Assembly (NCBI GenBank): GCA_051362555.1 | Contig: JBPQGU010000013.1 | Span: 62,001-126,000, forward strand | Length of the DNA: 64,000 nucleotides | From: Lingula anatina | Taxonomy: Eukaryota; Animalia; Brachiopoda | Reading direction: 5' to 3' | Shown: one piece after another, positions 1 to 64,000 of the stretch | Layout: every line of letters starts with the position of its first letter | Numbering within the stretch: the first letter of the stretch is position 1 | Translations under genes and position numbers: made by a program | The notes under the pieces: model-generated | Told to the model about the DNA's origin: nothing | Databases searched by the model: none | The model's input: only the letters and a program-made list of their open reading frames with translations

Positions 1-341
1 TAATTTTGGTATCAACTAGCAGAGTAGGGTGTTAACTACTGCCAGTTTTTTTTTCAGGACCAGGCACAGGTGCAGTGCAGTCGTGAGACCTCTGGCGGAA
101 GGGTCTACTGACTGTGAGTGGTGCAGTGGTTTGTTTACAAACAGAGGGGTGCACATGTTCAAGTGATGCCGGTAAGACAGCGGAGTTGATGACAGTATAT
201 TTTTTTGCCATTTGGAGTTATGTCAGTGTGTCTGCTGTCCATGGAGATGGGAAATGTTTCCCAGAGTTATTTTCTTTATGCAGTTTTGCAGGCATTTCTT
301 AGTATGGTCGTCAATGGGAAATATTTTGGTGGTTTCTCCCC
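1..341 (+). repeat. LTDR, partial (left part outside window)
   Basis: Ends in TIR tttggtggtttctcccc (325-341) followed by tgaa. Confidence 0.85.
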
Positions 342-404
342 TGAACAGGAAAAGTGACAACTGTTCACTTTTGGCTTAGTTTCTAAATTTAGAGCAGCAC
401 AGGC

Positions 405-444
405 CATAAAAGGGTGCTCTTGCATCATTTCACACAAAAAATGG
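405..444 (+). promoter_or_regulatory. Possible TATA-like element and start context of the nuclease gene
   Basis: CATAAAAG (405-412), TCATTT (425-430), AAAATGG at 441. Confidence 0.35.
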
Positions 445-806
445 CTAATGACCAGTTCTAGGATGTATATCTTGCGAAATTACATGCAAAATTGCATAAC
501 ACACAGGAGGGATACTGTTGGCTGTGGACTGGGGGCACCAGTTGTTCCAGTGGGGCCCGTTATGGGTTATGGAGGGTTACATTTCCTGGGGCTAGACACT
601 CTGTTACTGTTGGAGTGCACAGGGTGGCATTTATGCTTAGGAGAGGGTTTTACACATTCCACCCGTGTGGAGTCGGTCTGTGCTGTAACCCCGATCATCT
701 CACAGCAGAGCCTCAATGAATCAACAATAACAGATTACATTGTCGTAATGTGGGCAGGTGCCTCAGACACAGACGGGGGCCAAATTGTGTACATGATAAT
801 TATTAA
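441..806 (+). pseudogene. His-Me finger (I-PpoI-like His-Cys box) nuclease, 121 codons, with in-frame TAG (459-461) and TGA (717-719)
   Basis: Single frame from aaaATGG: MANDQF*DVYLAKLHAKLHNTQEGYCWLWTG...YG...HRVAFML...HPCGVGLCCNPDHLTAEPQ*INNNRLHCRNVGRCLRHRRGPNCVHDNY*. Shows HxCx4CxNPxHL-x2-E-x4-NxxRxxC spacing plus a second C/C/H/C cluster, as in I-PpoI. Confidence 0.88.
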
Positions 807-964
807 TATTATTGTTATTATTATTAAATTTACATTTACTTAATTTATAGATTTCTCAATTATATTTATAAGTTTTAAGACTAGAAGAAAGACCAACAAA
901 CTTTTTTTCATATTTCACAACCAGTTTATTACAGAGTAGTATCTTAAAATCATACATTTTTATT
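807..964. terminator. AT-rich convergent 3' region with poly(A) signals for both genes
   Basis: Minus-strand AATAAA at 959-964 and 925-930 just after the transposase stop; plus-strand ATTAAA at 823-828 after the nuclease stop. Confidence 0.5.
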
Positions 965-2887
965 TTAATTACATGCTCTCTTTGAATAGCTATGATCAGG
1001 AATTACAAGTTTTGGCATAGATATGCATCTTCTGTAGTCATTATTACTTTTCAATGCTTTAGATCTGTCATATCTTCTGTAACGGCTAAGGATTCTCTGT
1101 CTAGCTCTTAACTTAAATGCAACTGTCTTTTTGTGATTTACTCTCATTTTCATCTGTTTTTCATCTTTCTCCAGATATTTAACAACTGAAGAAGTGGGCC
1201 TAACACCAACAGAGGCCATCTTACACAAAGTGGATTGCTTAAGTCCATTATTCCTCAAGTGAACTGCACTGTGAATCCTGCCTTCGAAGTTCCGTGAAAA
1301 GGTGACAACTTTATTATTAGTTTTCTGAAATGTCCGGTTTAAAGACTCCACTTTTTGTGTGTTGGTATTAAGTTTTGTTGATTCAATTGCCCTTGGGCCC
1401 AGTCTATAATTTAGGCACTGTCTTAAGATGTGCACATCTTCAGAGTTGCTAAAGTCTAGTTTGCCTTTCTCAGGGAAAATAGTTTCCGTGCCACCTTTGC
1501 ATACATAAGAATACTTTAAGCAGTTTTCACAATCACCGTTGTAACAACTAATTATAGAGTCAGTGACATAACTCAGTGCTCTTTTAATCAATTCTATGTC
1601 CCCTTTATTTGCTTTATAGCAGGCATCGAATTCAGCATAACAGCGCATTGCTATGCACTGAGCAAAGCGTTTCTGCATCTTGTCTCTGGAGTACTTTGTT
1701 TTCCCTGGGAAAACTTGACCGGAAAATGGTGCTTTTTCAATTTGCTTTTTCAGAGCTTTACTGAAGTGGCGCGTGTCCCGAAGACTTTCGACATCATCAC
1801 ATGCAGAGTGGGCTCGGCTATCACCATCAGTGGTCAAGGCACCAACTGTGACCTCTCCAGAAATTTCCTCGAGGATCTGCTGCATGGCACGTTTCTCGTC
1901 TCCAATACTGTCGTCTTCCCGTAGATTCGCCGTGCAGATACCACTGTGCTCTGGACAGGATACATCTTCCCCTCTACTTTTAAGCAGGTGAGCTGTGTGG
2001 CATAACTTGTTTCCGGTGTAAACACCAATGATGTCTTTTTTGCTGGTTACATTTTCTGCAACGGTGTATACAGTCTGAGTGGCTGGCTGGTATGGTGTTT
2101 TGTTCCCTCCACTAAACAGACTATTATTATATCTGCCATCTCCTTCCACTGCTATGGGCTGTCCTTCACACCCTCTCAGATCTTGAATGCGGCGTAGATT
2201 CTCACGGCGCTGTTGCATGTCAGCTTTGTTAAGCTTGGTTATAGCAGCACCGACTTTATTTGCTTGCTTTTGCATGGATGATGCACTGGGCGGGGTCACA
2301 TTGGTCGCCATTAGAATCTGCCTCATGGCCGTGTTGGAGATCATGTTTTGTGACAGGCCTACTTGCAAGCCTGCATTCACCGTTGCTGCTCTCCTGCCAC
2401 GCTGCTTGCTCTCGACTTCATTGTACAATTTCTGTTTCCCTGTCCTGTACTGACACGTGTCACATTTTAGTCCCATTGACCAAGCCACTCCCCACTTGCT
2501 TTCTGCCTCTCTGTCCCAAACCATTGAGCCAGTGCACTCAGCTGTATGCTCTGACAAGACTTTGTTGACCAGATTGACAATTTTTTCTGGTGAAACCAAC
2601 TTGTATTCATCATCTGGGGGTTGGGGCTGGCTGCTGGACAAACTCTCTGACTGGGCCCTCCTAGGTCTGAGGATGACGGGTGCATCAGGGTTGCTGCTGA
2701 GGGTTGCTGGCGGCCCGACAGGGGGTGGAGAGGAGGCTGCCTGGTACAACTCTTGGCTGGGTCTGATGTATCTTCTCACAATAGGCTCTGGAGGCTGGTC
2801 AGACTTCTGTCTTGCATGGTATAGCTTGTGTCCCTTCACAAATACACTTTTTCTTCGTTTTTTCCAGCTACCTTTACCGTACGGCAT
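965..2887 (-). CDS. DDE transposase, Kolobok/Mutator-like class, 640 aa (open frame extends to 3151)
   Basis: Motifs AVEGDGRYNN (D250), TTDGDSRA (D354), DTRH (371-374), NTQKVESLN (E514); Cys/His motif H-x3-C...CDTC; basic KKRRK; C-terminal DHSY. Start placed at CCACCATG (Kozak) downstream of a TATA box, not at the TTG used by the ORF track. Confidence 0.9.
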   Translation of the reverse strand: MPYGKGSWKKRRKSVFVKGHKLYHARQKSDQPPEPIVRRYIRPSQELYQAASSPPPVGPPATLSSNPDAPVILRPRRAQSESLSSSQPQPPDDEYKLVSPEKIVNLVNKVLSEHTAECTGSMVWDREAESKWGVAWSMGLKCDTCQYRTGKQKLYNEVESKQRGRRAATVNAGLQVGLSQNMISNTAMRQILMATNVTPPSASSMQKQANKVGAAITKLNKADMQQRRENLRRIQDLRGCEGQPIAVEGDGRYNNSLFSGGNKTPYQPATQTVYTVAENVTSKKDIIGVYTGNKLCHTAHLLKSRGEDVSCPEHSGICTANLREDDSIGDEKRAMQQILEEISGEVTVGALTTDGDSRAHSACDDVESLRDTRHFSKALKKQIEKAPFSGQVFPGKTKYSRDKMQKRFAQCIAMRCYAEFDACYKANKGDIELIKRALSYVTDSIISCYNGDCENCLKYSYVCKGGTETIFPEKGKLDFSNSEDVHILRQCLNYRLGPRAIESTKLNTNTQKVESLNRTFQKTNNKVVTFSRNFEGRIHSAVHLRNNGLKQSTLCKMASVGVRPTSSVVKYLEKDEKQMKMRVNHKKTVAFKLRARQRILSRYRRYDRSKALKSNNDYRRCISMPKLVIPDHSYSKRACN

Positions 2888-2899
2888 GGTGGATAGAAA

Positions 2900-3018
2900 G
2901 TGACTTCTGAGTCCAGAGGCAGAGACAGGGCATTTTATAGCATCAGCTGCCCATTGTCTCTCCCAGGTGTGCAGGAAAGCAGGATACATTACAACAAAAG
3001 GTATGAACAGTGATTGGT
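2900..3018 (-). promoter_or_regulatory. Putative Pol II core promoter of the transposase (repeated in each unit)
   Basis: Minus-strand CCAATCA (3011-3017), TATAAAA (2933-2939), Inr-like TCA about 30 nt downstream, then CCACCATG at 2887. Canonical spacing. Confidence 0.6.
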
Positions 3019-3590
3019 AGTGGGGTTTCCTGTAAACAGCAAACTGCATGGCCCCAGTGCAGGAGGGGGGTATACAGCTTAGCAGTGAGTATTGTTCTGC
3101 AGGGAGGGACAAGAAGCTCATTTCCTGTATCCTCACAACAAACACAAACAAACATAAACAACAGTTGTGACAATTAACCTTGCACTTGAGTTTAAGTAAT
3201 TTTTAGATATTTTAAAATATTTTTATTAGTAATTTTCCACTTTTCACATTTTATTTCTCAACAAAGTGCACTTAAACTAGGCCCAACCAGTTAAGATGCT
3301 TATCTCAGATTTTCACACCTGTCCAGCATAAGGTGTCCAAATTTCAAAACAATTGAAACAAATTCAGGCACAGAAATGTACATTTAACTTTTTATCACTC
3401 ATGAAATTATGCTTTCTCACCAGGTGCAATGTTGGCTAGAGTGGCCGATACAGCAACCACATTTTCAACTTGACAGGGCTCAGTCATCAAGAGACCGTTC
3501 TCAGTCATATTGGGCGGAGCAGTTGGCAGTGTATTAAGGTTTTAATTTTTGGTGTCAGAAGGTAAGAACAGGGGGGGTGGTTTGTGTGAA

Positions 3591-3607
3591 GGGCAGAAAC
3601 CTCCAAA
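3591..3607 (+). repeat. Left TIR of LTDR (17 bp)
   Basis: gggcagaaacctccaaa; pairs with 4032-4048. Confidence 0.85.
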
Positions 3608-4031
3608 TCAACCAATCAGCACCTGTTATAGACGAATATAGTTCAGTGAGAAAAAATGAGTGCTTTTTTCCATTTTTTTCCTGGCATTTCTTGTGTGTTG
3701 CTAGGGTTAATTTTGGTATCAACTAGCAGAGTAGGGTGTTAACTACTGCCAGTTTTTTTTTCAGGACCAGGCACAGGTGCAGTGCAGTCGTGAGACCTCT
3801 GGCGGAAGGGTCTACTGACTGTGAGTGGTGCAGTGGTTTGTTTACAAACAGAGGGGTGCACATGTTCAAGTGATGCCGGTAAGACAGCGGAGTTGATGAC
3901 AGTATATTTTTTTGCCATTTGGAGTTATGTCAGTGTGTCTGCTGTCCATGGAGATGGGAAATGTTTCCCAGAGTTATTTTCTTTATGCAGTTTTGCAGGC
4001 ATTTCTTAGTATGGTCGTCAATGGGAAATAT

Positions 4032-4048
4032 TTTGGTGGTTTCTCCCC
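4032..4048 (-). repeat. Right TIR of LTDR (17 bp)
   Basis: tttggtggtttctcccc; pairs with 3591-3607. Confidence 0.85.
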
Positions 4049-4147
4049 TGAACAGGAAAAGTGACAACTGTTCACTTTTGGCTTAGTTTCTAAATTTAGA
4101 GCAGCACAGGCCATAAAAGGGTGCTCTTGCATCATTTCACACAAAAA

Positions 4148-4513
4148 ATGGCTAATGACCAGTTCTAGGATGTATATCTTGCGAAATTACATGCAAAATT
4201 GCATAACACACAGGAGGGATACTGTTGGCTGTGGACTGGGGGCACCAGTTGTTCCAGTGGGGCCCGTTATGGGTTATGGAGGGTTACATTTCCTGGGGCT
4301 AGACACTCTGTTACTGTTGGAGTGCACAGGGTGGCATTTATGCTTAGGAGAGGGTTTTACACATTCCACCCGTGTGGAGTCGGTCTGTGCTGTAACCCCG
4401 ATCATCTCACAGCAGAGCCTCAATGAATCAACAATAACAGATTACATTGTCGTAATGTGGGCAGGTGCCTCAGACACAGACGGGGGCCAAATTGTGTACA
4501 TGATAATTATTAA
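4148..4513 (+). pseudogene. His-Me finger nuclease copy (same two stops)
   Basis: Identical to 441-806. Confidence 0.85.
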
Positions 4514-4671
4514 TATTATTGTTATTATTATTAAATTTACATTTACTTAATTTATAGATTTCTCAATTATATTTATAAGTTTTAAGACTAGAAGAAAGAC
4601 CAACAAACTTTTTTTCATATTTCACAACCAGTTTATTACAGAGTAGTATCTTAAAATCATACATTTTTATT

Positions 4672-6594
4672 TTAATTACATGCTCTCTTTGAATAGCTAT
4701 GATCAGGAATTACAAGTTTTGGCATAGATATGCATCTTCTGTAGTCATTATTACTTTTCAATGCTTTAGATCTGTCATATCTTCTGTAACGGCTAAGGAT
4801 TCTCTGTCTAGCTCTTAACTTAAATGCAACTGTCTTTTTGTGATTTACTCTCATTTTCATCTGTTTTTCATCTTTCTCCAGATATTTAACAACTGAAGAA
4901 GTGGGCCTAACACCAACAGAGGCCATCTTACACAAAGTGGATTGCTTAAGTCCATTATTCCTCAAGTGAACTGCACTGTGAATCCTGCCTTCGAAGTTCC
5001 GTGAAAAGGTGACAACTTTATTATTAGTTTTCTGAAATGTCCGGTTTAAAGACTCCACTTTTTGTGTGTTGGTATTAAGTTTTGTTGATTCAATTGCCCT
5101 TGGGCCCAGTCTATAATTTAGGCACTGTCTTAAGATGTGCACATCTTCAGAGTTGCTAAAGTCTAGTTTGCCTTTCTCAGGGAAAATAGTTTCCGTGCCA
5201 CCTTTGCATACATAAGAATACTTTAAGCAGTTTTCACAATCACCGTTGTAACAACTAATTATAGAGTCAGTGACATAACTCAGTGCTCTTTTAATCAATT
5301 CTATGTCCCCTTTATTTGCTTTATAGCAGGCATCGAATTCAGCATAACAGCGCATTGCTATGCACTGAGCAAAGCGTTTCTGCATCTTGTCTCTGGAGTA
5401 CTTTGTTTTCCCTGGGAAAACTTGACCGGAAAATGGTGCTTTTTCAATTTGCTTTTTCAGAGCTTTACTGAAGTGGCGCGTGTCCCGAAGACTTTCGACA
5501 TCATCACATGCAGAGTGGGCTCGGCTATCACCATCAGTGGTCAAGGCACCAACTGTGACCTCTCCAGAAATTTCCTCGAGGATCTGCTGCATGGCACGTT
5601 TCTCGTCTCCAATACTGTCGTCTTCCCGTAGATTCGCCGTGCAGATACCACTGTGCTCTGGACAGGATACATCTTCCCCTCTACTTTTAAGCAGGTGAGC
5701 TGTGTGGCATAACTTGTTTCCGGTGTAAACACCAATGATGTCTTTTTTGCTGGTTACATTTTCTGCAACGGTGTATACAGTCTGAGTGGCTGGCTGGTAT
5801 GGTGTTTTGTTCCCTCCACTAAACAGACTATTATTATATCTGCCATCTCCTTCCACTGCTATGGGCTGTCCTTCACACCCTCTCAGATCTTGAATGCGGC
5901 GTAGATTCTCACGGCGCTGTTGCATGTCAGCTTTGTTAAGCTTGGTTATAGCAGCACCGACTTTATTTGCTTGCTTTTGCATGGATGATGCACTGGGCGG
6001 GGTCACATTGGTCGCCATTAGAATCTGCCTCATGGCCGTGTTGGAGATCATGTTTTGTGACAGGCCTACTTGCAAGCCTGCATTCACCGTTGCTGCTCTC
6101 CTGCCACGCTGCTTGCTCTCGACTTCATTGTACAATTTCTGTTTCCCTGTCCTGTACTGACACGTGTCACATTTTAGTCCCATTGACCAAGCCACTCCCC
6201 ACTTGCTTTCTGCCTCTCTGTCCCAAACCATTGAGCCAGTGCACTCAGCTGTATGCTCTGACAAGACTTTGTTGACCAGATTGACAATTTTTTCTGGTGA
6301 AACCAACTTGTATTCATCATCTGGGGGTTGGGGCTGGCTGCTGGACAAACTCTCTGACTGGGCCCTCCTAGGTCTGAGGATGACGGGTGCATCAGGGTTG
6401 CTGCTGAGGGTTGCTGGCGGCCCGACAGGGGGTGGAGAGGAGGCTGCCTGGTACAACTCTTGGCTGGGTCTGATGTATCTTCTCACAATAGGCTCTGGAG
6501 GCTGGTCAGACTTCTGTCTTGCATGGTATAGCTTGTGTCCCTTCACAAATACACTTTTTCTTCGTTTTTTCCAGCTACCTTTACCGTACGGCAT
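4672..6594 (-). CDS. DDE transposase, intact copy
   Basis: Translation identical to 965-2887. Confidence 0.9.
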   Translation of the reverse strand: MPYGKGSWKKRRKSVFVKGHKLYHARQKSDQPPEPIVRRYIRPSQELYQAASSPPPVGPPATLSSNPDAPVILRPRRAQSESLSSSQPQPPDDEYKLVSPEKIVNLVNKVLSEHTAECTGSMVWDREAESKWGVAWSMGLKCDTCQYRTGKQKLYNEVESKQRGRRAATVNAGLQVGLSQNMISNTAMRQILMATNVTPPSASSMQKQANKVGAAITKLNKADMQQRRENLRRIQDLRGCEGQPIAVEGDGRYNNSLFSGGNKTPYQPATQTVYTVAENVTSKKDIIGVYTGNKLCHTAHLLKSRGEDVSCPEHSGICTANLREDDSIGDEKRAMQQILEEISGEVTVGALTTDGDSRAHSACDDVESLRDTRHFSKALKKQIEKAPFSGQVFPGKTKYSRDKMQKRFAQCIAMRCYAEFDACYKANKGDIELIKRALSYVTDSIISCYNGDCENCLKYSYVCKGGTETIFPEKGKLDFSNSEDVHILRQCLNYRLGPRAIESTKLNTNTQKVESLNRTFQKTNNKVVTFSRNFEGRIHSAVHLRNNGLKQSTLCKMASVGVRPTSSVVKYLEKDEKQMKMRVNHKKTVAFKLRARQRILSRYRRYDRSKALKSNNDYRRCISMPKLVIPDHSYSKRACN

Positions 6595-7297
6595 GGTGGA
6601 TAGAAAGTGACTTCTGAGTCCAGAGGCAGAGACAGGGCATTTTATAGCATCAGCTGCCCATTGTCTCTCCCAGGTGTGCAGGAAAGCAGGATACATTACA
6701 ACAAAAGGTATGAACAGTGATTGGTAGTGGGGTTTCCTGTAAACAGCAAACTGCATGGCCCCAGTGCAGGAGGGGGGTATACAGCTTAGCAGTGAGTATT
6801 GTTCTGCAGGGAGGGACAAGAAGCTCATTTCCTGTATCCTCACAACAAACACAAACAAACATAAACAACAGTTGTGACAATTAACCTTGCACTTGAGTTT
6901 AAGTAATTTTTAGATATTTTAAAATATTTTTATTAGTAATTTTCCACTTTTCACATTTTATTTCTCAACAAAGTGCACTTAAACTAGGCCCAACCAGTTA
7001 AGATGCTTATCTCAGATTTTCACACCTGTCCAGCATAAGGTGTCCAAATTTCAAAACAATTGAAACAAATTCAGGCACAGAAATGTACATTTAACTTTTT
7101 ATCACTCATGAAATTATGCTTTCTCACCAGGTGCAATGTTGGCTAGAGTGGCCGATACAGCAACCACATTTTCAACTTGACAGGGCTCAGTCATCAAGAG
7201 ACCGTTCTCAGTCATATTGGGCGGAGCAGTTGGCAGTGTATTAAGGTTTTAATTTTTGGTGTCAGAAGGTAAGAACAGGGGGGGTGGTTTGTGTGAA

Positions 7298-7755
7298 GGG
7301 CAGAAACCTCCAAATCAACCAATCAGCACCTGTTATAGACGAATATAGTTCAGTGAGAAAAAATGAGTGCTTTTTTCCATTTTTTTCCTGGCATTTCTTG
7401 TGTGTTGCTAGGGTTAATTTTGGTATCAACTAGCAGAGTAGGGTGTTAACTACTGCCAGTTTTTTTTTCAGGACCAGGCACAGGTGCAGTGCAGTCGTGA
7501 GACCTCTGGCGGAAGGGTCTACTGACTGTGAGTGGTGCAGTGGTTTGTTTACAAACAGAGGGGTGCACATGTTCAAGTGATGCCGGTAAGACAGCGGAGT
7601 TGATGACAGTATATTTTTTTGCCATTTGGAGTTATGTCAGTGTGTCTGCTGTCCATGGAGATGGGAAATGTTTCCCAGAGTTATTTTCTTTATGCAGTTT
7701 TGCAGGCATTTCTTAGTATGGTCGTCAATGGGAAATATTTTGGTGGTTTCTCCCC
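7298..7755 (+). repeat. LTDR copy with variant right flank (ttcaaacagg instead of tgaacagg)
   Basis: Same TIRs, 458 bp. Confidence 0.88.
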
Positions 7756-7856
7756 TTCAAACAGGAAAAGTGACAACTGTTCACTTTTGGCTTAGTTTCT
7801 AAATTTAGAGCAGCACAGGCCATAAAAGGGTGCTCTTGCATCATTTCACACAAAAA

Positions 7857-8222
7857 ATGGCTAATGACCAGTTCTAGGATGTATATCTTGCGAAATTACA
7901 TGCAAAATTGCATAACACACAGGAGGGATACTGTTGGCTGTGGACTGGGGGCACCAGTTGTTCCAGTGGGGCCCGTTATGGGTTATGGAGGGTTACATTT
8001 CCTGGGGCTAGACACTCTGTTACTGTTGGAGTGCACAGGGTGGCATTTATGCTTAGGAGAGGGTTTTACACATTCCACCCGTGTGGAGTCGGTCTGTGCT
8101 GTAACCCCGATCATCTCACAGCAGAGCCTCAATGAATCAACAATAACAGATTACATTGTCGTAATGTGGGCAGGTGCCTCAGACACAGACGGGGGCCAAA
8201 TTGTGTACATGATAATTATTAA
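7857..8222 (+). pseudogene. His-Me finger nuclease copy (same two stops)
   Basis: Identical. Confidence 0.85.
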
Positions 8223-8380
8223 TATTATTGTTATTATTATTAAATTTACATTTACTTAATTTATAGATTTCTCAATTATATTTATAAGTTTTAAGACTAG
8301 AAGAAAGACCAACAAACTTTTTTTCATATTTCACAACCAGTTTATTACAGAGTAGTATCTTAAAATCATACATTTTTATT

Positions 8381-10303
8381 TTAATTACATGCTCTCTTTG
8401 AATAGCTATGATCAGGAATTACAAGTTTTGGCATAGATATGCATCTTCTGTAGTCATTATTACTTTTCAATGCTTTAGATCTGTCATATCTTCTGTAACG
8501 GCTAAGGATTCTCTGTCTAGCTCTTAACTTAAATGCAACTGTCTTTTTGTGATTTACTCTCATTTTCATCTGTTTTTCATCTTTCTCCAGATATTTAACA
8601 ACTGAAGAAGTGGGCCTAACACCAACAGAGGCCATCTTACACAAAGTGGATTGCTTAAGTCCATTATTCCTCAAGTGAACTGCACTGTGAATCCTGCCTT
8701 CGAAGTTCCGTGAAAAGGTGACAACTTTATTATTAGTTTTCTGAAATGTCCGGTTTAAAGACTCCACTTTTTGTGTGTTGGTATTAAGTTTTGTTGATTC
8801 AATTGCCCTTGGGCCCAGTCTATAATTTAGGCACTGTCTTAAGATGTGCACATCTTCAGAGTTGCTAAAGTCTAGTTTGCCTTTCTCAGGGAAAATAGTT
8901 TCCGTGCCACCTTTGCATACATAAGAATACTTTAAGCAGTTTTCACAATCACCGTTGTAACAACTAATTATAGAGTCAGTGACATAACTCAGTGCTCTTT
9001 TAATCAATTCTATGTCCCCTTTATTTGCTTTATAGCAGGCATCGAATTCAGCATAACAGCGCATTGCTATGCACTGAGCAAAGCGTTTCTGCATCTTGTC
9101 TCTGGAGTACTTTGTTTTCCCTGGGAAAACTTGACCGGAAAATGGTGCTTTTTCAATTTGCTTTTTCAGAGCTTTACTGAAGTGGCGCGTGTCCCGAAGA
9201 CTTTCGACATCATCACATGCAGAGTGGGCTCGGCTATCACCATCAGTGGTCAAGGCACCAACTGTGACCTCTCCAGAAATTTCCTCGAGGATCTGCTGCA
9301 TGGCACGTTTCTCGTCTCCAATACTGTCGTCTTCCCGTAGATTCGCCGTGCAGATACCACTGTGCTCTGGACAGGATACATCTTCCCCTCTACTTTTAAG
9401 CAGGTGAGCTGTGTGGCATAACTTGTTTCCGGTGTAAACACCAATGATGTCTTTTTTGCTGGTTACATTTTCTGCAACGGTGTATACAGTCTGAGTGGCT
9501 GGCTGGTATGGTGTTTTGTTCCCTCCACTAAACAGACTATTATTATATCTGCCATCTCCTTCCACTGCTATGGGCTGTCCTTCACACCCTCTCAGATCTT
9601 GAATGCGGCGTAGATTCTCACGGCGCTGTTGCATGTCAGCTTTGTTAAGCTTGGTTATAGCAGCACCGACTTTATTTGCTTGCTTTTGCATGGATGATGC
9701 ACTGGGCGGGGTCACATTGGTCGCCATTAGAATCTGCCTCATGGCCGTGTTGGAGATCATGTTTTGTGACAGGCCTACTTGCAAGCCTGCATTCACCGTT
9801 GCTGCTCTCCTGCCACGCTGCTTGCTCTCGACTTCATTGTACAATTTCTGTTTCCCTGTCCTGTACTGACACGTGTCACATTTTAGTCCCATTGACCAAG
9901 CCACTCCCCACTTGCTTTCTGCCTCTCTGTCCCAAACCATTGAGCCAGTGCACTCAGCTGTATGCTCTGACAAGACTTTGTTGACCAGATTGACAATTTT
10001 TTCTGGTGAAACCAACTTGTATTCATCATCTGGGGGTTGGGGCTGGCTGCTGGACAAACTCTCTGACTGGGCCCTCCTAGGTCTGAGGATGACGGGTGCA
10101 TCAGGGTTGCTGCTGAGGGTTGCTGGCGGCCCGACAGGGGGTGGAGAGGAGGCTGCCTGGTACAACTCTTGGCTGGGTCTGATGTATCTTCTCACAATAG
10201 GCTCTGGAGGCTGGTCAGACTTCTGTCTTGCATGGTATAGCTTGTGTCCCTTCACAAATACACTTTTTCTTCGTTTTTTCCAGCTACCTTTACCGTACGG
10301 CAT
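8381..10303 (-). CDS. DDE transposase, intact copy
   Basis: Identical translation. Confidence 0.9.
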   Translation of the reverse strand: MPYGKGSWKKRRKSVFVKGHKLYHARQKSDQPPEPIVRRYIRPSQELYQAASSPPPVGPPATLSSNPDAPVILRPRRAQSESLSSSQPQPPDDEYKLVSPEKIVNLVNKVLSEHTAECTGSMVWDREAESKWGVAWSMGLKCDTCQYRTGKQKLYNEVESKQRGRRAATVNAGLQVGLSQNMISNTAMRQILMATNVTPPSASSMQKQANKVGAAITKLNKADMQQRRENLRRIQDLRGCEGQPIAVEGDGRYNNSLFSGGNKTPYQPATQTVYTVAENVTSKKDIIGVYTGNKLCHTAHLLKSRGEDVSCPEHSGICTANLREDDSIGDEKRAMQQILEEISGEVTVGALTTDGDSRAHSACDDVESLRDTRHFSKALKKQIEKAPFSGQVFPGKTKYSRDKMQKRFAQCIAMRCYAEFDACYKANKGDIELIKRALSYVTDSIISCYNGDCENCLKYSYVCKGGTETIFPEKGKLDFSNSEDVHILRQCLNYRLGPRAIESTKLNTNTQKVESLNRTFQKTNNKVVTFSRNFEGRIHSAVHLRNNGLKQSTLCKMASVGVRPTSSVVKYLEKDEKQMKMRVNHKKTVAFKLRARQRILSRYRRYDRSKALKSNNDYRRCISMPKLVIPDHSYSKRACN

Positions 10304-55118: not shown

Positions 55119-55217
55119 TGAACAGGAAAAGTGACAACTGTTCACTTTTGGCTTAGTTTCTAAATTAGAGCAGCACAGGCCATAAAAGGGTGCTCTTGCA
55201 TCATTTCACACAAAAAA

Positions 55218-55581: not shown

Positions 55582-55739
55582 TATTATTGTTATTATTATT
55601 AAATTTACATTTACTTAATTTATAGATTTCTCAATTATATTTATAAGTTTTAAGACTAGAAGAAAGACCAACAAACTTTTTTTCATATTTCACAACCAGT
55701 TTATTACAGAGTAGTATCTTAAAATCATACATTTTTATT

Positions 55740-57652
55740 TTAATTACATGCTCTCTTTGAATAGCTATGATCAGGAATTACAAGTTTTGGCATAGATATG
55801 CATCTTCTGTAGTCATTATTACTTTTCAATGCTTTAGATCTGTCATATCTTCTGTAACGGCTAAGGATTCTCTGTCTAGCTCTTAACTTAAATGCAACTG
55901 TCTTTTGTGATTTACTCTCATTTTCATCTGTTTTTCCAGATATTTAACAACTGAAGAAGTGGGCCTAACACCAACAGAGGCCATCTTACACAAAGTGGAT
56001 TGCTTAAGTCCATTATTCCTCAAGTGAACTGCACTGTGAATCCTGCCTTCGAAGTTCCGTGAAAAGGTGACAACTTTATTATTAGTTTTCTGAAATGTCC
56101 GGTTTAAAGACTCCACTTTTTGTGTGTTGGTATTAAGTTTTGTTGATTCAATTGCCCTTGGGCCCAGTCTATAATTTAGGCACTGTCTTAAGATGTGCAC
56201 ATCTTCAGAGTTGCTAAAGTCTAGTTTGCCTTTCTCAGGGAAAATAGTTTCCGTGCCACCTTTGCATACATAAGAATACTTTAAGCAGTTTTCACAATCA
56301 CCGTTGTAACAACTAATTATAGAGTCAGTGACATAACTCAGTGCTCTTTTAATCAATTCTATGTCCCCTTTATTTGCTTTATAGCAGGCATCGAATTCAG
56401 CATAACAGCGCATTGCTATGCACTGAGCAAAGCGTTTCTGCATCTTGTCTCTGGAGTACTTTGTTTTCCCTGGGAAAACTTGACCGGAAAATGGTGCTTT
56501 TTCAATTTGCTTTTTCAGAGCTTTACTGAAGTGGCGCGTGTCCCGAAGACTTTCGACATCATCACATGCAGAGTGGGCTCGGCTATCACCATCAGTGGTC
56601 AAGGCACCAACTGTGACCTCTCCAGAAATTTCCTCGAGGATCTGCTGCATGGCACGTTTCTCGTCTCCAATACTGTCGTCTTCCCGTAGATTCGCCGTGC
56701 AGATACCACTGTGCTCTGGACAGGATACATCTTCCCCTCTACTTTTAAGCAGGTGAGCTGTGTGGCATAACTTGTTTCCGGTGTAAACACCAATGATGTC
56801 TTTTTTGCTGGTTACATTTTCTGCAACGGTGTATACAGTCTGAGTGGCTGGCTGGTATGGTGTTTTGTTCCCTCCACTAAACAGACTATTATTATATCTG
56901 CCATCTCCTTCCACTGCTATGGGCTGTCCTTCACACCCTCTCAGATCTTGAATGCGGCGTAGATTCTCACGGCGCTGTTGCATGTCAGCTTTGTTAAGCT
57001 TGGTTATAGCAGCACCGACTTTATTTGCTTGCTTTTGCATGGATGATGCACTGGGCGGGGTCACATTGGTCGCCATTAGAATCTGCCTCATGGCCGTGTT
57101 GGAGATCATGTTTTGTGACAGGCCTACTTGCAAGCCTGCATTCACCGTTGCTGCTCTCCTGCCACGCTGCTTGCTCTCGACTTCATTGTACAATTTCTGT
57201 TTCCCTGTCCTGTACTGACACGTGTCACATTTTAGTCCCATTGACCAAGCCACTCCCCACTTGCTTTCTGCCTCTCTGTCCCAAACCATTGAGCCAGTGC
57301 ACTCAGCTGTATGCTCTGACAAGACTTTGTTGACCAGATTGACAATTTTTTCTGGTGAAACCAACTTGTATTCATCATCTGGGGGTTGGGGCTGGCTGCT
57401 GGACAAACTCTCTGACTGGGCCCTCCTAGGTCTGAGGATGACGGGTGCATCAGGGTTGCTGCTGAGGGTTGCTGGCGGCCCGACAGGGGGTGGAGAGGAG
57501 GCTGCCTGGTACAACTCTTGGCTGGGTCTGATGTATCTTCTCACAATAGGCTCTGGAGGCTGGTCAGACTTCTGTCTTGCATGGTATAGCTTGTGTCCCT
57601 TCACAAATACACTTTTTCTTCGTTTTTTCCAGCTACCTTTACCGTACGGCAT
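55740..57652 (-). pseudogene. Transposase copy with 3' deletions near 55905 and 55936
   Basis: Ends ...YLEKQMKMRVNHKRQLHLS* instead of the normal C-terminus. Confidence 0.7.
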
Positions 57653-58360
57653 GGTGGATAGAAAGTGACTTCTGAGTCCAGAGGCAGAGACAGGGCATTT
57701 TATAGCATCAGCTGCCCATTGTCTCTCCCAGGTGTGCAGGAAAGCAGGATACATTACAACAAAAGGTATGAACAGTGATTGGTAGTGGGGTTTCCTGTAA
57801 ACAGCAAACTGCATGGCCCCAGTGCAGGAGGGGGGTATACAGCTTAGCAGTGAGTATTGTTCTGCAGGGAGGGACAAGAAGCTCATTTCCTGTATCCTCA
57901 CAACAAACACAAACAAACATAAACAACAGTTGTGACAATTAACCTTGCACTTGAGTTTAAGTAATTTTTAGATATTTTAAAATATTTTTATTAGTAATTT
58001 TCCACTTTTCACATTTTATTTCTCAACAAAGTGCACTTAAACTAGGCCCAACCAGTTAAGATGCTTATCTCAGATTTTCACACCTGTCCAGCATAAGGTG
58101 TCCAAATTTCAAAACAATTGAAACAAATTCAGGCACAGAAATGTACATTTAACTTTTTATCACTCATGAAATTATGCTTTCTCACCAGGTGCAATGTTGG
58201 CTAGAGTGGCCGATACAGCAACCACATTTTCAACTTGACAGGGCTCAGTCATCAAGAGACCGTTCTCAGTCATATTGGGCGGAGCAGTTGGCAGTGTATT
58301 AAGGTTTTAATTTTTGGTGTCAGAAGGTAAGAACAGGGGGGGTGGTTTGTGTGAATCTCA

Positions 58361-58818
58361 GGGCAGAAACCTCCAAATCAACCAATCAGCACCTGTTATA
58401 GACGAATATAGTTCAGTGAGAAAAAATGAGTGCTTTTTTCCATTTTTTTCCTGGCATTTCTTGTGTGTTGCTAGGGTTAATTTTGGTATCAACTAGCAGA
58501 GTAGGGTGTTAACTACTGCCAGTTTTTTTTTCAGGACCAGGCACAGGTGCAGTGCAGTCGTGAGACCTCTGGCGGAAGGGTCTACTGACTGTGAGTGGTG
58601 CAGTGGTTTGTTTACAAACAGAGGGGTGCACATGTTCAAGTGATGCCGGTAAGACAGCGGAGTTGATGACAGTATATTTTTTTGCCATTTGGAGTTATGT
58701 CAGTGTGTCTGCTGTCCATGGAGATGGGAAATGTTTCCCAGAGTTATTTTCTTTATGCAGTTTTGCAGGCATTTCTTAGTATGGTCGTCAATGGGAAATA
58801 TTTTGGTGGTTTCTCCCC
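58361..58818 (+). repeat. LTDR copy (long allele)
   Basis: Same TIRs, 458 bp. Confidence 0.88.
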
Positions 58819-58917
58819 TGAACAGGAAAAGTGACAACTGTTCACTTTTGGCTTAGTTTCTAAATTTAGAGCAGCACAGGCCATAAAAGGGTGCTCTTGC
58901 ATCATTTCACACAAAAA

Positions 58918-59281
58918 ATGGCTAATGACCAGTTCTAGGATGTATATCTTGCGAAATTACATGCAAAATTGCATAACACACAGGAGGGATACTGTTGGCT
59001 GTGGACTGGGGGCACCAGTTGTTCCAGTGGGGCCCGTTATGGGTTATGGAGGGTTACATTTCCTGGGGCTAGACACTCTGTTACTGTTGGAGTGCACAGG
59101 GTGGCATTTATGCTTAGGAGAGGGTTTTACACATTCCACCCGTGTGGAGTCGGTCTGTGCTGTAACCCCGATCATCTCACAGCAGAGCCTCTGAATCAAC
59201 AATAACAGATTACATTGTCGTAATGTGGGCAGGTGCCTCAGACACAGACGGGGGCCAAATTGTGTACATGATAATTATTAA
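58918..59281 (+). pseudogene. His-Me finger nuclease copy with a 2-bp deletion next to the TGA
   Basis: gagcctctgaatc vs gagcctcaatgaatc; frameshifts to AEPLNQQ*. Confidence 0.8.
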
Positions 59282-59439
59282 TATTATTGTTATTATTATT
59301 AAATTTACATTTACTTAATTTATAGATTTCTCAATTATATTTATAAGTTTTAAGACTAGAAGAAAGACCAACAAACTTTTTTTCATATTTCACAACCAGT
59401 TTATTACAGAGTAGTATCTTAAAATCATACATTTTTATT

Positions 59440-61362
59440 TTAATTACATGCTCTCTTTGAATAGCTATGATCAGGAATTACAAGTTTTGGCATAGATATG
59501 CATCTTCTGTAGTCATTATTACTTTTCAATGCTTTAGATCTGTCATATCTTCTGTAACGGCTAAGGATTCTCTGTCTAGCTCTTAACTTAAATGCAACTG
59601 TCTTTTTGTGATTTACTCTCATTTTCATCTGTTTTTCATCTTTCTCCAGATATTTAACAACTGAAGAAGTGGGCCTAACACCAACAGAGGCCATCTTACA
59701 CAAAGTGGATTGCTTAAGTCCATTATTCCTCAAGTGAACTGCACTGTGAATCCTGCCTTCGAAGTTCCGTGAAAAGGTGACAACTTTATTATTAGTTTTC
59801 TGAAATGTCCGGTTTAAAGACTCCACTTTTTGTGTGTTGGTATTAAGTTTTGTTGATTCAATTGCCCTTGGGCCCAGTCTATAATTTAGGCACTGTCTTA
59901 AGATGTGCACATCTTCAGAGTTGCTAAAGTCTAGTTTGCCTTTCTCAGGGAAAATAGTTTCCGTGCCACCTTTGCATACATAAGAATACTTTAAGCAGTT
60001 TTCACAATCACCGTTGTAACAACTAATTATAGAGTCAGTGACATAACTCAGTGCTCTTTTAATCAATTCTATGTCCCCTTTATTTGCTTTATAGCAGGCA
60101 TCGAATTCAGCATAACAGCGCATTGCTATGCACTGAGCAAAGCGTTTCTGCATCTTGTCTCTGGAGTACTTTGTTTTCCCTGGGAAAACTTGACCGGAAA
60201 ATGGTGCTTTTTCAATTTGCTTTTTCAGAGCTTTACTGAAGTGGCGCGTGTCCCGAAGACTTTCGACATCATCACATGCAGAGTGGGCTCGGCTATCACC
60301 ATCAGTGGTCAAGGCACCAACTGTGACCTCTCCAGAAATTTCCTCGAGGATCTGCTGCATGGCACGTTTCTCGTCTCCAATACTGTCGTCTTCCCGTAGA
60401 TTCGCCGTGCAGATACCACTGTGCTCTGGACAGGATACATCTTCCCCTCTACTTTTAAGCAGGTGAGCTGTGTGGCATAACTTGTTTCCGGTGTAAACAC
60501 CAATGATGTCTTTTTTGCTGGTTACATTTTCTGCAACGGTGTATACAGTCTGAGTGGCTGGCTGGTATGGTGTTTTGTTCCCTCCACTAAACAGACTATT
60601 ATTATATCTGCCATCTCCTTCCACTGCTATGGGCTGTCCTTCACACCCTCTCAGATCTTGAATGCGGCGTAGATTCTCACGGCGCTGTTGCATGTCAGCT
60701 TTGTTAAGCTTGGTTATAGCAGCACCGACTTTATTTGCTTGCTTTTGCATGGATGATGCACTGGGCGGGGTCACATTGGTCGCCATTAGAATCTGCCTCA
60801 TGGCCGTGTTGGAGATCATGTTTTGTGACAGGCCTACTTGCAAGCCTGCATTCACCGTTGCTGCTCTCCTGCCACGCTGCTTGCTCTCGACTTCATTGTA
60901 CAATTTCTGTTTCCCTGTCCTGTACTGACACGTGTCACATTTTAGTCCCATTGACCAAGCCACTCCCCACTTGCTTTCTGCCTCTCTGTCCCAAACCATT
61001 GAGCCAGTGCACTCAGCTGTATGCTCTGACAAGACTTTGTTGACCAGATTGACAATTTTTTCTGGTGAAACCAACTTGTATTCATCATCTGGGGGTTGGG
61101 GCTGGCTGCTGGACAAACTCTCTGACTGGGCCCTCCTAGGTCTGAGGATGACGGGTGCATCAGGGTTGCTGCTGAGGGTTGCTGGCGGCCCGACAGGGGG
61201 TGGAGAGGAGGCTGCCTGGTACAACTCTTGGCTGGGTCTGATGTATCTTCTCACAATAGGCTCTGGAGGCTGGTCAGACTTCTGTCTTGCATGGTATAGC
61301 TTGTGTCCCTTCACAAATACACTTTTTCTTCGTTTTTTCCAGCTACCTTTACCGTACGGCAT
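59440..61362 (-). CDS. DDE transposase, intact copy
   Basis: Identical translation. Confidence 0.9.
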   Translation of the reverse strand: MPYGKGSWKKRRKSVFVKGHKLYHARQKSDQPPEPIVRRYIRPSQELYQAASSPPPVGPPATLSSNPDAPVILRPRRAQSESLSSSQPQPPDDEYKLVSPEKIVNLVNKVLSEHTAECTGSMVWDREAESKWGVAWSMGLKCDTCQYRTGKQKLYNEVESKQRGRRAATVNAGLQVGLSQNMISNTAMRQILMATNVTPPSASSMQKQANKVGAAITKLNKADMQQRRENLRRIQDLRGCEGQPIAVEGDGRYNNSLFSGGNKTPYQPATQTVYTVAENVTSKKDIIGVYTGNKLCHTAHLLKSRGEDVSCPEHSGICTANLREDDSIGDEKRAMQQILEEISGEVTVGALTTDGDSRAHSACDDVESLRDTRHFSKALKKQIEKAPFSGQVFPGKTKYSRDKMQKRFAQCIAMRCYAEFDACYKANKGDIELIKRALSYVTDSIISCYNGDCENCLKYSYVCKGGTETIFPEKGKLDFSNSEDVHILRQCLNYRLGPRAIESTKLNTNTQKVESLNRTFQKTNNKVVTFSRNFEGRIHSAVHLRNNGLKQSTLCKMASVGVRPTSSVVKYLEKDEKQMKMRVNHKKTVAFKLRARQRILSRYRRYDRSKALKSNNDYRRCISMPKLVIPDHSYSKRACN

Positions 61363-62070
61363 GGTGGATAGAAAGTGACTTCTGAGTCCAGAGGCAGAGA
61401 CAGGGCATTTTATAGCATCAGCTGCCCATTGTCTCTCCCAGGTGTGCAGGAAAGCAGGATACATTACAACAAAAGGTATGAACAGTGATTGGTAGTGGGG
61501 TTTCCTGTAAACAGCAAACTGCATGGCCCCAGTGCAGGAGGGGGGTATACAGCTTAGCAGTGAGTATTGTTCTGCAGGGAGGGACAAGAAGCTCATTTCC
61601 TGTATCCTCACAACAAACACAAACAAACATAAACAACAGTTGTGACAATTAACCTTGCACTTGAGTTTAAGTAATTTTTAGATATTTTAAAATATTTTTA
61701 TTAGTAATTTTCCACTTTTCACATTTTATTTCTCAACAAAGTGCACTTAAACTAGGCCCAACCAGTTAAGATGCTTATCTCAGATTTTCACACCTGTCCA
61801 GCATAAGGTGTCCAAATTTCAAAACAATTGAAACAAATTCAGGCACAGAAATGTACATTTAACTTTTTATCACTCATGAAATTATGCTTTCTCACCAGGT
61901 GCAATGTTGGCTAGAGTGGCCGATACAGCAACCACATTTTCAACTTGACAGGGCTCAGTCATCAAGAGACCGTTCTCAGTCATATTGGGCGGAGCAGTTG
62001 GCAGTGTATTAAGGTTTTAATTTTTGGTGTCAGAAGGTAAGAACAGGGGGGGTGGTTTGTGTGAATCTCA

Positions 62071-62528
62071 GGGCAGAAACCTCCAAATCAACCAATCAGC
62101 ACCTGTTATAGACGAATATAGTTCAGTGAGAAAAAATGAGTGCTTTTTTCCATTTTTTTCCTGGCATTTCTTGTGTGTTGCTAGGGTTAATTTTGGTATC
62201 AACTAGCAGAGTAGGGTGTTAACTACTGCCAGTTTTTTTTTCAGGACCAGGCACAGGTGCAGTGCAGTCGTGAGACCTCTGGCGGAAGGGTCTACTGACT
62301 GTGAGTGGTGCAGTGGTTTGTTTACAAACAGAGGGGTGCACATGTTCAAGTGATGCCGGTAAGACAGCGGAGTTGATGACAGTATATTTTTTTGCCATTT
62401 GGAGTTATGTCAGTGTGTCTGCTGTCCATGGAGATGGGAAATGTTTCCCAGAGTTATTTTCTTTATGCAGTTTTGCAGGCATTTCTTAGTATGGTCGTCA
62501 ATGGGAAATATTTTGGTGGTTTCTCCCC
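62071..62528 (+). repeat. LTDR copy (long allele)
   Basis: Same TIRs, 458 bp. Confidence 0.88.
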
Positions 62529-62627
62529 TGAACAGGAAAAGTGACAACTGTTCACTTTTGGCTTAGTTTCTAAATTTAGAGCAGCACAGGCCATAAAAGG
62601 GTGCTCTTGCATCATTTCACACAAAAA

Positions 62628-62993
62628 ATGGCTAATGACCAGTTCTAGGATGTATATCTTGCGAAATTACATGCAAAATTGCATAACACACAGGAGGGAT
62701 ACTGTTGGCTGTGGACTGGGGGCACCAGTTGTTCCAGTGGGGCCCGTTATGGGTTATGGAGGGTTACATTTCCTGGGGCTAGACACTCTGTTACTGTTGG
62801 AGTGCACAGGGTGGCATTTATGCTTAGGAGAGGGTTTTACACATTCCACCCGTGTGGAGTCGGTCTGTGCTGTAACCCCGATCATCTCACAGCAGAGCCT
62901 CAATGAATCAACAATAACAGATTACATTGTCGTAATGTGGGCAGGTGCCTCAGACACAGACGGGGGCCAAATTGTGTACATGATAATTATTAA
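62628..62993 (+). pseudogene. His-Me finger nuclease copy (same two stops)
   Basis: Identical. Confidence 0.85.
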
Positions 62994-63151
62994 TATTATT
63001 GTTATTATTATTAAATTTACATTTACTTAATTTATAGATTTCTCAATTATATTTATAAGTTTTAAGACTAGAAGAAAGACCAACAAACTTTTTTTCATAT
63101 TTCACAACCAGTTTATTACAGAGTAGTATCTTAAAATCATACATTTTTATT

Positions 63152-64000
63152 TTAATTACATGCTCTCTTTGAATAGCTATGATCAGGAATTACAAGTTTT
63201 GGCATAGATATGCATCTTCTGTAGTCATTATTACTTTTCAATGCTTTAGATCTGTCATATCTTCTGTAACGGCTAAGGATTCTCTGTCTAGCTCTTAACT
63301 TAAATGCAACTGTCTTTTTGTGATTTACTCTCATTTTCATCTGTTTTTCATCTTTCTCCAGATATTTAACAACTGAAGAAGTGGGCCTAACACCAACAGA
63401 GGCCATCTTACACAAAGTGGATTGCTTAAGTCCATTATTCCTCAAGTGAACTGCACTGTGAATCCTGCCTTCGAAGTTCCGTGAAAAGGTGACAACTTTA
63501 TTATTAGTTTTCTGAAATGTCCGGTTTAAAGACTCCACTTTTTGTGTGTTGGTATTAAGTTTTGTTGATTCAATTGCCCTTGGGCCCAGTCTATAATTTA
63601 GGCACTGTCTTAAGATGTGCACATCTTCAGAGTTGCTAAAGTCTAGTTTGCCTTTCTCAGGGAAAATAGTTTCCGTGCCACCTTTGCATACATAAGAATA
63701 CTTTAAGCAGTTTTCACAATCACCGTTGTAACAACTAATTATAGAGTCAGTGACATAACTCAGTGCTCTTTTAATCAATTCTATGTCCCCTTTATTTGCT
63801 TTATAGCAGGCATCGAATTCAGCATAACAGCGCATTGCTATGCACTGAGCAAAGCGTTTCTGCATCTTGTCTCTGGAGTACTTTGTTTTCCCTGGGAAAA
63901 CTTGACCGGAAAATGGTGCTTTTTCAATTTGCTTTTTCAGAGCTTTACTGAAGTGGCGCGTGTCCCGAAGACTTTCGACATCATCACATGCAGAGTGGGC
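63152..64000 (-). CDS. DDE transposase, 3' part (5' end beyond window)
   Basis: Identical C-terminal translation. Confidence 0.88.
   Translation of the reverse strand, partial: AHSACDDVESLRDTRHFSKALKKQIEKAPFSGQVFPGKTKYSRDKMQKRFAQCIAMRCYAEFDACYKANKGDIELIKRALSYVTDSIISCYNGDCENCLKYSYVCKGGTETIFPEKGKLDFSNSEDVHILRQCLNYRLGPRAIESTKLNTNTQKVESLNRTFQKTNNKVVTFSRNFEGRIHSAVHLRNNGLKQSTLCKMASVGVRPTSSVVKYLEKDEKQMKMRVNHKKTVAFKLRARQRILSRYRRYDRSKALKSNNDYRRCISMPKLVIPDHSYSKRACN

What the first reader, a model, noticed from the sequence alone, without database searches (positions are those of the whole stretch)
1..64000. A >=64-kb satellite-like array of a composite eukaryotic DNA transposon (transposase + homing-type nuclease + TIR-bounded LTDR)
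Seen: alternating 458-bp LTDR and about 3.25-kb internal region, each LTDR shared by its neighbours; 17 complete LTDRs and 9 intact transposase ORFs; no base substitutions noticed. Known: KolobokP elements (Kojima and Bao) have LTDRs of ~450 or ~660 bp with short TIRs, a DDD/E transposase and a His-Me finger nuclease, mainly in molluscs and other marine invertebrates, so the family itself is not new. Inference: a homogeneous array this long, with one LTDR per unit, is what rolling-circle copying of a one-LTDR circle or repeated unequal exchange between LTDRs would give. That points to very recent amplification, possibly via an extrachromosomal circle.
Basis: partly seen in the sequence, partly recalled or inferred. 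Interest (0 to 1): 0.8.

Follow-up and report, generated by a model that had tools for sequence, protein, structure and literature searches.

The report
Transposon freshly amplified into tandem array
This stretch is 17 near-identical copies of one 3.7-kb animal DNA transposon of a known kind (KolobokP) whose own nuclease gene is broken; read data suggest that this one version recently multiplied to roughly a hundred copies in living cells of one study's samples, likely as a chromosomal array, while the two inversions in the stretch are probably sequencing or assembly artefacts.

Summary
The repeat is real: a 3707-bp unit fills the window, with 17 complete 458-bp LTDRs and 9 of 16 intact transposase genes. 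It is a new KolobokP family (43% identity to a protein matching KolobokP-7_GiAe). (1) The array is not head-to-tail throughout: 26284-46565 is inverted between two fold-back junctions. (2) 10 of 18 INT|LTDR junctions carry an extra 5 bp (TCTCA) against the TIR, in irregular order; public contigs confirm both forms at about 50:50, so one monomer circle cannot be the direct template. (3) The His-Me nuclease is a pseudogene in these copies. (4) A spliced antisense RNA crosses the junction. Public runs show this haplotype at about 6 times the depth of all other family copies in two samples of one study (one looks like Hi-C, so unamplified), with about one LTDR per INT, and absent from three other studies. 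Best reading: a very young chromosomal tandem array, seeded by a two-junction dimer and expanded by unequal exchange. Circles are not excluded. KolobokP multimers and transposon-derived satellites are known; the size, dead nuclease and spacer junction are new details.

The parts
1..26283 (+). Block A: 7 full units plus 315 bp, head-to-tail
   Evidence: blastn of the unit
26284..46565 (-). Block B: inverted, 5 full units plus two partial units
46566..64000 (+). Block C: 4 full units plus two partial units; error-rich at 48-56 kb
26277..26290 (.). Fold-back J1: unit position 315 joined to the reverse strand at 1142 (offset about 827 nt); no exact overlap, 5 of 7 bases alike
46560..46572 (.). Fold-back J2: reverse strand at unit position 3131 joined to forward 2911 (offset about 220 nt); 1-nt exact overlap, a 4-nt match one base off
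   Evidence: no such joint in the complete joint table
3591..4048 (-). LTDR, 458 bp (first complete copy; 17 in all), flanked on both sides by TGAA
3591..3607 (.). TIR, left arm (17 bp)
   Evidence: 15 of 17 match to the right arm
4032..4048 (.). TIR, right arm (17 bp)
342..3590 (-). INT, 3249 bp, starts and ends with TGAA on the + strand
965..2887 (-). Kolobok-type DDD/E transposase, 640 aa from the ATG that aligns with homologue starts (the ORF is open 78 codons further upstream, to 3121)
   Evidence: PF20700 E 2e-53; alignment; motifs
462..806 (+). His-Me finger nuclease pseudogene; in-frame TGA at 717-719, two codons before the catalytic-Asn position
   Evidence: PF05551 E 7e-4 up to the stop, E 1e-7 and above cut-off when read through with X; compared by eye with Data S4
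166..171 (+). Candidate first nuclease exon in the LTDR (ATG CCG, then a GTAAG donor), in frame with an AG at 460-461 (predicted)
   Evidence: RNA reads leave the LTDR at this donor (loose ends 11299 and 11300); splicing to 462 itself was not seen
11007..11011 (+). 5-bp spacer TCTCA between the INT end and the TIR; also before the LTDRs at 27542, 31252, 34964, 38679, 46101, 50966, 54662, 58361 and 62071 (10 of 18 junctions)
   Evidence: present in X1 at depth 2954 and in a 151-bp X2 contig
7756..7760 (+). Single altered right border (TTCAA in place of TGA); 1 of 18 copies; unconfirmed
1988..2867 (+). Intron 1 of a transcript antisense to the transposase (880 nt, GT-AG)
   Evidence: loose ends at 10281 in X7 and X11
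3001..3423 (+). Intron 2 of the antisense transcript (423 nt, GT-AG)
   Evidence: X7 joint
3562..3764 (+). Intron 3 of the antisense transcript (203 nt), spanning the INT|LTDR junction
   Evidence: X7 joint

Best explanation
The window is a tandem array of one KolobokP transposon haplotype with an intact transposase and a broken nuclease, most likely a very young chromosomal array of order 100 units, inferred to have grown by unequal exchange from a seed that held both junction types. Shown: unit anatomy, two junction types, high depth of this haplotype in two samples of one study, and about one LTDR per INT. Inferred: (1) the 5-bp spacer is a target-site-sized piece of flank left by the transposase, either when a copy inserted next to an LTDR-less INT end or when one of two abutting LTDRs of a double insertion was lost; this gives a dimer with one native and one spacer junction; (2) out-of-register exchange between identical units expanded and scrambled it, perhaps helped by transposase cuts at the many intact TIRs or by nuclease from intact sister copies in trans; (3) the two inversions are probably single-read chimeras taken into a collapsed contig.
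For: At unit position 3447 the window's base has depth 6047 against 924 for all other copies in X1 and 2104 against 356 in X2, ratios 6.5 and 5.9; in X3, X9 and X10 it is 0 of 146, 0 of 967 and 0 of 98.5. X2 looks like a Hi-C-type library: one contig has a GATC-GATC junction at 11824 and depth climbs from about 2000 to about 7000 towards the GATC sites. Such libraries start from fixed nuclei (my knowledge), so the excess is in vivo. Exact LTDR depth in X1 is about 5450-5510 against about 6000-6300 for INT, a ratio near 0.9; dispersed monomers would give 2. The spacer has depth 2954 in X1, about half, against 10 of 18 in the window; order is neither uniform nor alternating (8 runs, P 0.25 against random). 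Only 2 substitution rows at 1% or more over 1765 bp. KolobokP TSDs are 3-5 bp and mostly read T...A in the figure parts I saw, as does the spacer. Precedent: a hobo dimer expanded to about 16 copies in one fly line with an 8-nt target-site motif between copies (PMC5932611). J2 lay inside the interval and no strand-change joint was listed.
Against: X1 may be the sample the window came from, and X1 and X2 share a study, so they are not independent of it. Contig depth is not copy number (tool caveat); 'order 100' rests on the lowest contig depths listed for X1 (41-60) being single copy. The Hi-C reading rests on one junction contig plus a depth gradient. No donor site ending in the spacer was seen, but loose-end tables were cut (346 and 16 rows not shown). 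Unit order in a near-identical array may be shuffled by assembly. Contigs drop rare variants, so the missing J2 is weak; J1 could not be judged (17 joints not shown).
Confidence: 0.58

Rival explanations
1. The excess copies are extrachromosomal in vivo: LTDR-INT circles of two kinds (no spacer, from LTDR-LTDR recombination; 5-bp spacer, from a transposase end-transfer as in IS3/IS256-type circles) that replicate by rolling circle and recombine. The fold-backs would be template switches during that replication.
For: One LTDR per INT fits circles as well as an array. No substitution variants. The spacer is TSD-sized, and Kojima and Bao predict such circles from 1-5-bp excision footprints. Read on the minus strand, both junctions have snap-back polarity.
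Against: Junction types are intermixed within 4 kb (7298 without, 11012 with, 14719 without). The same spacer and the same haplotype-to-family ratio occur in two samples, which fits an inherited locus. The unit has no replication gene. Junction types are not mirrored across J1 (0 of 6; 2 of 6 at best offset).
Confidence: 0.22
2. The concatemer was made in the tube: phi29-type amplification of a few circles or short multimers, with inverted chimeras, then assembled.
For: Inverted chimeras are the commonest MDA chimera, with offsets peaking at 250-300 nt and mostly under 10 kb (PMC9984789); the offsets here are about 220 and 827 nt. The indels look like read errors. J2 is mirrored 5 of 5 at an offset of one unit (chance about 0.06).
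Against: The Hi-C-like run X2 shows the same roughly 6-fold excess as X1. Exact overlaps are 0-1 nt, against a typical 5-8 nt for MDA. Junction types are mixed.
Confidence: 0.12
3. The array is chromosomal and the inversions are real: an inverted-triplication-like (+/-/+) structure made by replication template switching (ODIRA type) inside the array.
For: +/-/+ layout with the same polarity at both junctions. ODIRA junctions use 2-14-bp interrupted inverted repeats (PMC10766183).
Against: ODIRA prefers 40-80-bp spacing; here about 220 and 827. J2 is not among the X1/X2 joints. An error-rich tract abuts J1. No mirror of junction types at J1.
Confidence: 0.08

Closest known systems
KolobokP DNA transposons (Kojima and Bao 2022, PMC9587614); nearest named member KolobokP-7_GiAe
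   Same: LTDR of about 450 bp with short TIRs and GG...CC ends; INT with the same 4-mer at both ends; DDD/E transposase with a downstream His-Me finger gene on the opposite strand; neighbours share an LTDR; monomer would be 4165 bp. Transposase is 43% identical over 468 aa to P0028, whose core matches KolobokP_7_GiAe_1p by eye.
   Different: No exact match of five 11-13-nt motifs in the consensus file (line breaks could hide some), so probably a new family. The longest multimer in the figure parts I read had 5 INTs (2 of 7 parts); here 17 or more, about 100 by depth. Half the junctions have gained 5 bp, whereas the paper describes 1-5-bp losses. The nuclease is decayed while the transposase is intact.
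Transposon-derived satellites: hobo (about 16 copies, one line), Bari1 (32-130), R1 (91-273) in Drosophila (PMC5932611)
   Same: Full-length elements in tandem; expansion limited to one line or study; target-site-sized motif at junctions (hobo); unequal exchange proposed.
   Different: Units share an LTDR instead of abutting TIR to TIR; two junction types are intermixed; TIRs are intact, unlike the fixed Bari1 array.
Copy-out-paste-in circles of IS3/IS256 and IS26 translocatable units (as discussed in PMC9587614)
   Same: A short TSD-sized spacer beside a TIR; a unit with one terminal module and one internal region.
   Different: The spacer lies between INT and a TIR, not between two abutted TIRs; no circle has been shown; a related eukaryotic enzyme, Muta1, cuts out through flank hairpins (PMC5499845).

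Membership tests
KolobokP | LTDR near 450 or 660 bp with its own short TIRs | tested here: met
   458 bp; 17-bp TIR, 15 of 17. Borders set from the TIR, the flanking TGAA and a depth rise over the LTDR in all four runs.
KolobokP | Termini 5'-RR ... YY-3' | tested here: met
   GG...CC on both strands
KolobokP | DDD/E transposase with CCHC finger after the first Asp, C/DxxH signature and a second finger before the Glu | tested here: met
   EGDGRY at 248, C-x14-C-x2-H-x3-C from 296, TTDGD at 352, DTRH at 371, QKVES at 511; conserved columns
KolobokP | Transposase groups with KolobokP rather than other Kolobok lineages | tested here: inconclusive
   All named hits among 102 are mollusc proteins, two matching KolobokP entries by eye. 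The tree of 87 proteins of 500 aa or more had no non-P outgroup, so it cannot test monophyly.
KolobokP | His-Me finger nuclease gene downstream on the complementary strand | tested here: met
   PF05551 above cut-off when read through with X; present but broken. The paper notes families without it.
KolobokP | 3-5-bp TSDs around the whole insertion | not testable with these tools
   The window has no array ends; flanks were merged or cut in the loose-end tables.
Active His-Cys box homing endonuclease (I-PpoI type) | Ser97-His98, His110, Glu114, Asn119 in one open frame | tested here: not met
   His98, His110 and Glu114 equivalents are present; Ser97 is Phe; a TGA precedes the Asn119 equivalent; the loop before the motif is short.
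Rolling-circle product of one monomer circle | Identical junction in every unit and a single orientation | tested here: not met
   10 of 18 against 8 of 18 junction types; two inversions. Holds only if the assembly order is true.
Chromosomal satellite array | Anchored in unique chromosomal DNA | not testable with these tools
Chromosomal satellite array | High-copy tandem units present in unamplified DNA | tested here: inconclusive
   LTDR:INT near 0.9 and a 6-fold excess in a Hi-C-like run; library types are not on record and circles would give the same ratio.

The most novel reading that the evidence does not exclude
This is a eukaryotic composite transposon caught replicating as an extrachromosomal LTDR-INT circle and concatemer at about 100 copies per cell, and the 5-bp spacer is the first direct trace of the IS3/IS256-like circle junction that Kojima and Bao predicted. 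The spliced RNA that crosses the INT|LTDR junction would then reach the nuclease gene only in circles or multimers.
Probability: 0.2. Interest if true: 0.75.

Novelty: new variant of a known kind. Interest (0 to 1): 0.45.

Why it matters
How KolobokP multimers form is open: a 2026 review says the nuclease-induced crossover model still awaits experimental confirmation (PMC13565253). This array has a built-in marker (two junction types), no detectable divergence and a dead nuclease, so long reads can separate unequal exchange from rolling-circle growth and show whether the nuclease is needed in cis. It would also be an example of a satellite at birth from an autonomous element outside Drosophila. 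In practice it warns that such contigs carry read errors and probable chimeras, so 'broken' copies and inversions should not be counted as biology.

Tried and rejected
No whole genome held. Earlier scan notes: nothing by place, sequence or words. Viral contigs: no relative; metagenome contigs: one 1383-bp fragment at 57%, uninformative. Nuclease homologue search: no hit; PDB sequence search: none, then one chance hit at E 1. Motif searches in supplement 4 were void because it holds coordinates only. No RNA holder was listed; this blank is not evidence. Mirror test of junction types across folds: 0 of 6 at J1; 3 of 5 at J2, or 5 of 5 at one-unit offset (P about 0.06); not decisive. Flank-hairpin (P-nucleotide) origin for the spacer and the 7756 variant: both resemble the reverse complement of TGAA and Muta1 forms flank hairpins, but the spacer has an extra base and the 7756 variant was not seen in run contigs; kept only as a lead. 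'X2 has only the spacer form' was considered and dropped because contigs collapse bubbles. The 131-aa ORF at 448-843 was taken as an off-frame shadow of the nuclease and not tested further. Literature searches: 'KolobokP' gave 2 papers; 'Kolobok' with 'extrachromosomal' gave 4, of which I read parts of the two KolobokP ones and only the listings of the other two; (listings only) showed no report of a KolobokP mega-array or circle. Subscription journals, Repbase and Dfam were not searchable. The unread parts of supplement 2 (5 of 7) may hold longer multimers or spacer junctions.

Full report
Observation. One 3707-bp unit covers all 64,000 bases. Five of the first six copies are identical to the base. 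The LTDR runs GGGC...CCCC with a 17-bp TIR (15 of 17) and has TGAA on both sides, so INT starts and ends with the same 4-mer, as the paper reports for KolobokP-1_MeMe. The array is not head-to-tail throughout: 26284-46565 is inverted. J1 joins unit position 315 to the reverse strand at 1142; J2 joins reverse 3131 to forward 2911. Exact overlaps are 0 and 1 nt.

Variation. Alignment of all copies gave 38 deletions, 34 insertions and 3 substitutions. Most are one-base homopolymer changes clustered at 24-26.3 kb (insertion-rich) and 48-56 kb (deletion-rich). Of 37 such unit positions inside the interval laid (list), 2 appear in that call's indel table, both in LTDR T-runs. I infer they are read or consensus errors and that the 7 'broken' transposases are probably intact. 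One variant recurs: 5 extra bases (TCTCA) between the INT end and the TIR in 10 of 18 junctions, ordered --+---- / ++++-+ / -++++. The order is not distinguishable from random (P 0.25) and is not mirrored across J1.

Proteins. The transposase matches PF20700 at E 2e-53. Homologues start near the ATG at 2887, giving 640 aa. It has the first Asp, a CCHC finger, TTDGD, DTRH and QKVES, the Kolobok layout described in PMC9587614. Of 102 homologues the named ones are mollusc proteins; P0028 is 43% identical over 468 aa and its core matches KolobokP_7_GiAe_1p in Data S5 by eye. Closer relatives (43-61%) are unnamed and form a clade of 8 with the window protein (87 proteins of 500 aa or more, 16 shorter hits left out, no outgroup). 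The nuclease frame scores E 7e-4 to PF05551 up to its stop and E 1e-7 when read through with X. Against Data S4 it keeps the His98, His110 and Glu114 equivalents, but Ser97 is Phe, the loop before it is about 7 residues short, and a TGA sits two codons before the catalytic Asn position in all 17 copies where the context matched exactly (the 18th has an adjacent deletion). Loose ends at unit position 637 in X1, X2, X3 and X9 show that other family copies carry a longer loop; by eye it leads to the canonical motif, so an intact nuclease could act in trans (inference). The TAG at 459-461 may be a splice acceptor: an ATG-CCG exon with a GTAAG donor at 172 is in frame, and RNA reads leave the LTDR at that donor.

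Public runs. Ten runs of one coded organism in 4 studies hold the unit; I laid 6 of them and one RNA run. At unit position 3447 the window's base has depth 6047 against 924 for other copies in X1, 2104 against 356 in X2, and 0 in X3, X9 and X10. So one haplotype is amplified about 6-fold over the rest of the family in two samples of study P1 and is absent from the three runs laid from other studies. Against the lowest contig depths listed for X1 (41-60) this is of order 100 copies, a rough inference because contig depth is not copy number. The spacer is real: depth 2954 in X1, about half, with the plain junction also present, and inside a 151-bp X2 contig of depth 1959. It is absent from X3, X9 and X10. 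LTDR depth for this haplotype in X1 is about 5450-5510 against 6000-6300 for INT, so there is about one LTDR per INT: tandem or circular, not dispersed monomers. X2 has a GATC-GATC junction at a GATC site and depth rising about 3.5-fold towards such sites, which suggests a Hi-C-type library. From my own knowledge these are made from fixed nuclei without prior genome amplification, so the excess is likely in vivo. X1 may be the window's own source and shares a study with X2. J2 lay inside the interval, whose joint table was complete (3 rows) and had no strand change; J1 could not be judged (17 joints hidden).

RNA. A contig of X7, which looks like RNA although listed as DNA, skips 423 and 208 nt at GT-AG borders on the + strand, and loose ends in X7 and in raw reads of X11 mark a third intron. 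These map to 1988-2867, 3001-3423 and 3562-3764. Mate orientation in X11 also points to a + strand RNA if the library follows the usual convention. The RNA is antisense to the transposase and crosses the INT|LTDR junction. The X11 reads differ slightly from the window, so they may come from sister copies. The joined exons have no ORF over 49 aa before the nuclease region. In a monomer it would run out into flanking DNA; in a multimer or circle it would run towards the next nuclease gene. That last step was not seen.

Mechanism. A monomer circle would give uniform junctions and a two-junction dimer circle would give alternation; neither is seen, if the assembly order is right. A seed with one native and one spacer junction, expanded by unequal exchange, gives a roughly even, scrambled mix. 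The spacer has the size and T...A form of KolobokP TSDs, so I infer it is a target-site remnant from an adjacent insertion or a double insertion with LTDR loss. The hobo array of PMC5932611 is a precedent. I give the chromosomal array 0.58, in vivo circles or concatemers 0.22, in vitro amplification 0.12 and a chromosomal array with real inversions 0.08.

Known and new. Kojima and Bao already describe (LTDR-INT)n-LTDR multimers and propose unequal crossover and LTDR-INT circles; the longest multimer in the figure parts I read had 5 INTs. Satellites of whole transposons are known in Drosophila. New here are the family, the size, the sample-restricted amplification of a nuclease-dead haplotype, the gained 5-bp junction and the antisense RNA. 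This is a new variant of a known kind; interest 0.45.

What I read. PMC9587614: main text parts 1-4 of 6, Table S1 whole, supplement 2 parts 1-2 of 7, supplement 3 parts 102-103 of 106 plus term searches, supplement 4 part 1 of 339 plus one search. PMC13565253, PMC5499845, PMC9984789, PMC11660948 (not used), PMC5932611 and PMC10766183: passages only. Other papers: search listings only. Residue numbering follows I-PpoI as given in PMC9587614.

Noticed in passing
window 1988-2867, 3001-3423, 3562-3764 (each unit): Three GT-AG introns on the strand opposite the transposase, spliced in X7 and partly in X11; the RNA crosses the INT|LTDR junction. It could be a silencing precursor or a leader for the next unit's nuclease.
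   Followed up: partly
window 166-177 and 11299-11300: A strong splice donor inside the LTDR is used in X11 RNA reads, which continue into at least two unrelated sequences; LTDRs may donate a first exon to host transcripts.
   Followed up: partly
window 7756-7760: One right border reads TTCAA instead of TGA, making it the reverse complement of the left flank; it may be a hairpin-type footprint or an error.
   Followed up: partly
window 3556-4051: Depth over the LTDR is several-fold above INT in all four runs, so diverged solo LTDRs of this family are probably common in organism A.
   Followed up: no
window 1200-4900: A sister subfamily about 90% identical is present in all four studies, and its transposase strand appears transcribed in X11 (reads at 10166-10225).
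   Followed up: no
window 1404-1459: An imperfect 56-bp palindrome inside the transposase gene (E 8e-5).
   Followed up: no
window 2888-3121: The transposase frame stays open for 78 codons upstream of the conserved start; probably untranslated.
   Followed up: no
window about 49535-49560: A 22-bp local duplication next to a 5-bp deletion in one copy, typical of a consensus stitching error.
   Followed up: no
P0002-P0008; L001:24-961: The closest transposases (43-61%) come from unnamed metagenome contigs of 2.5-11.6 kb, a clade of likely undescribed KolobokP families.
   Followed up: partly
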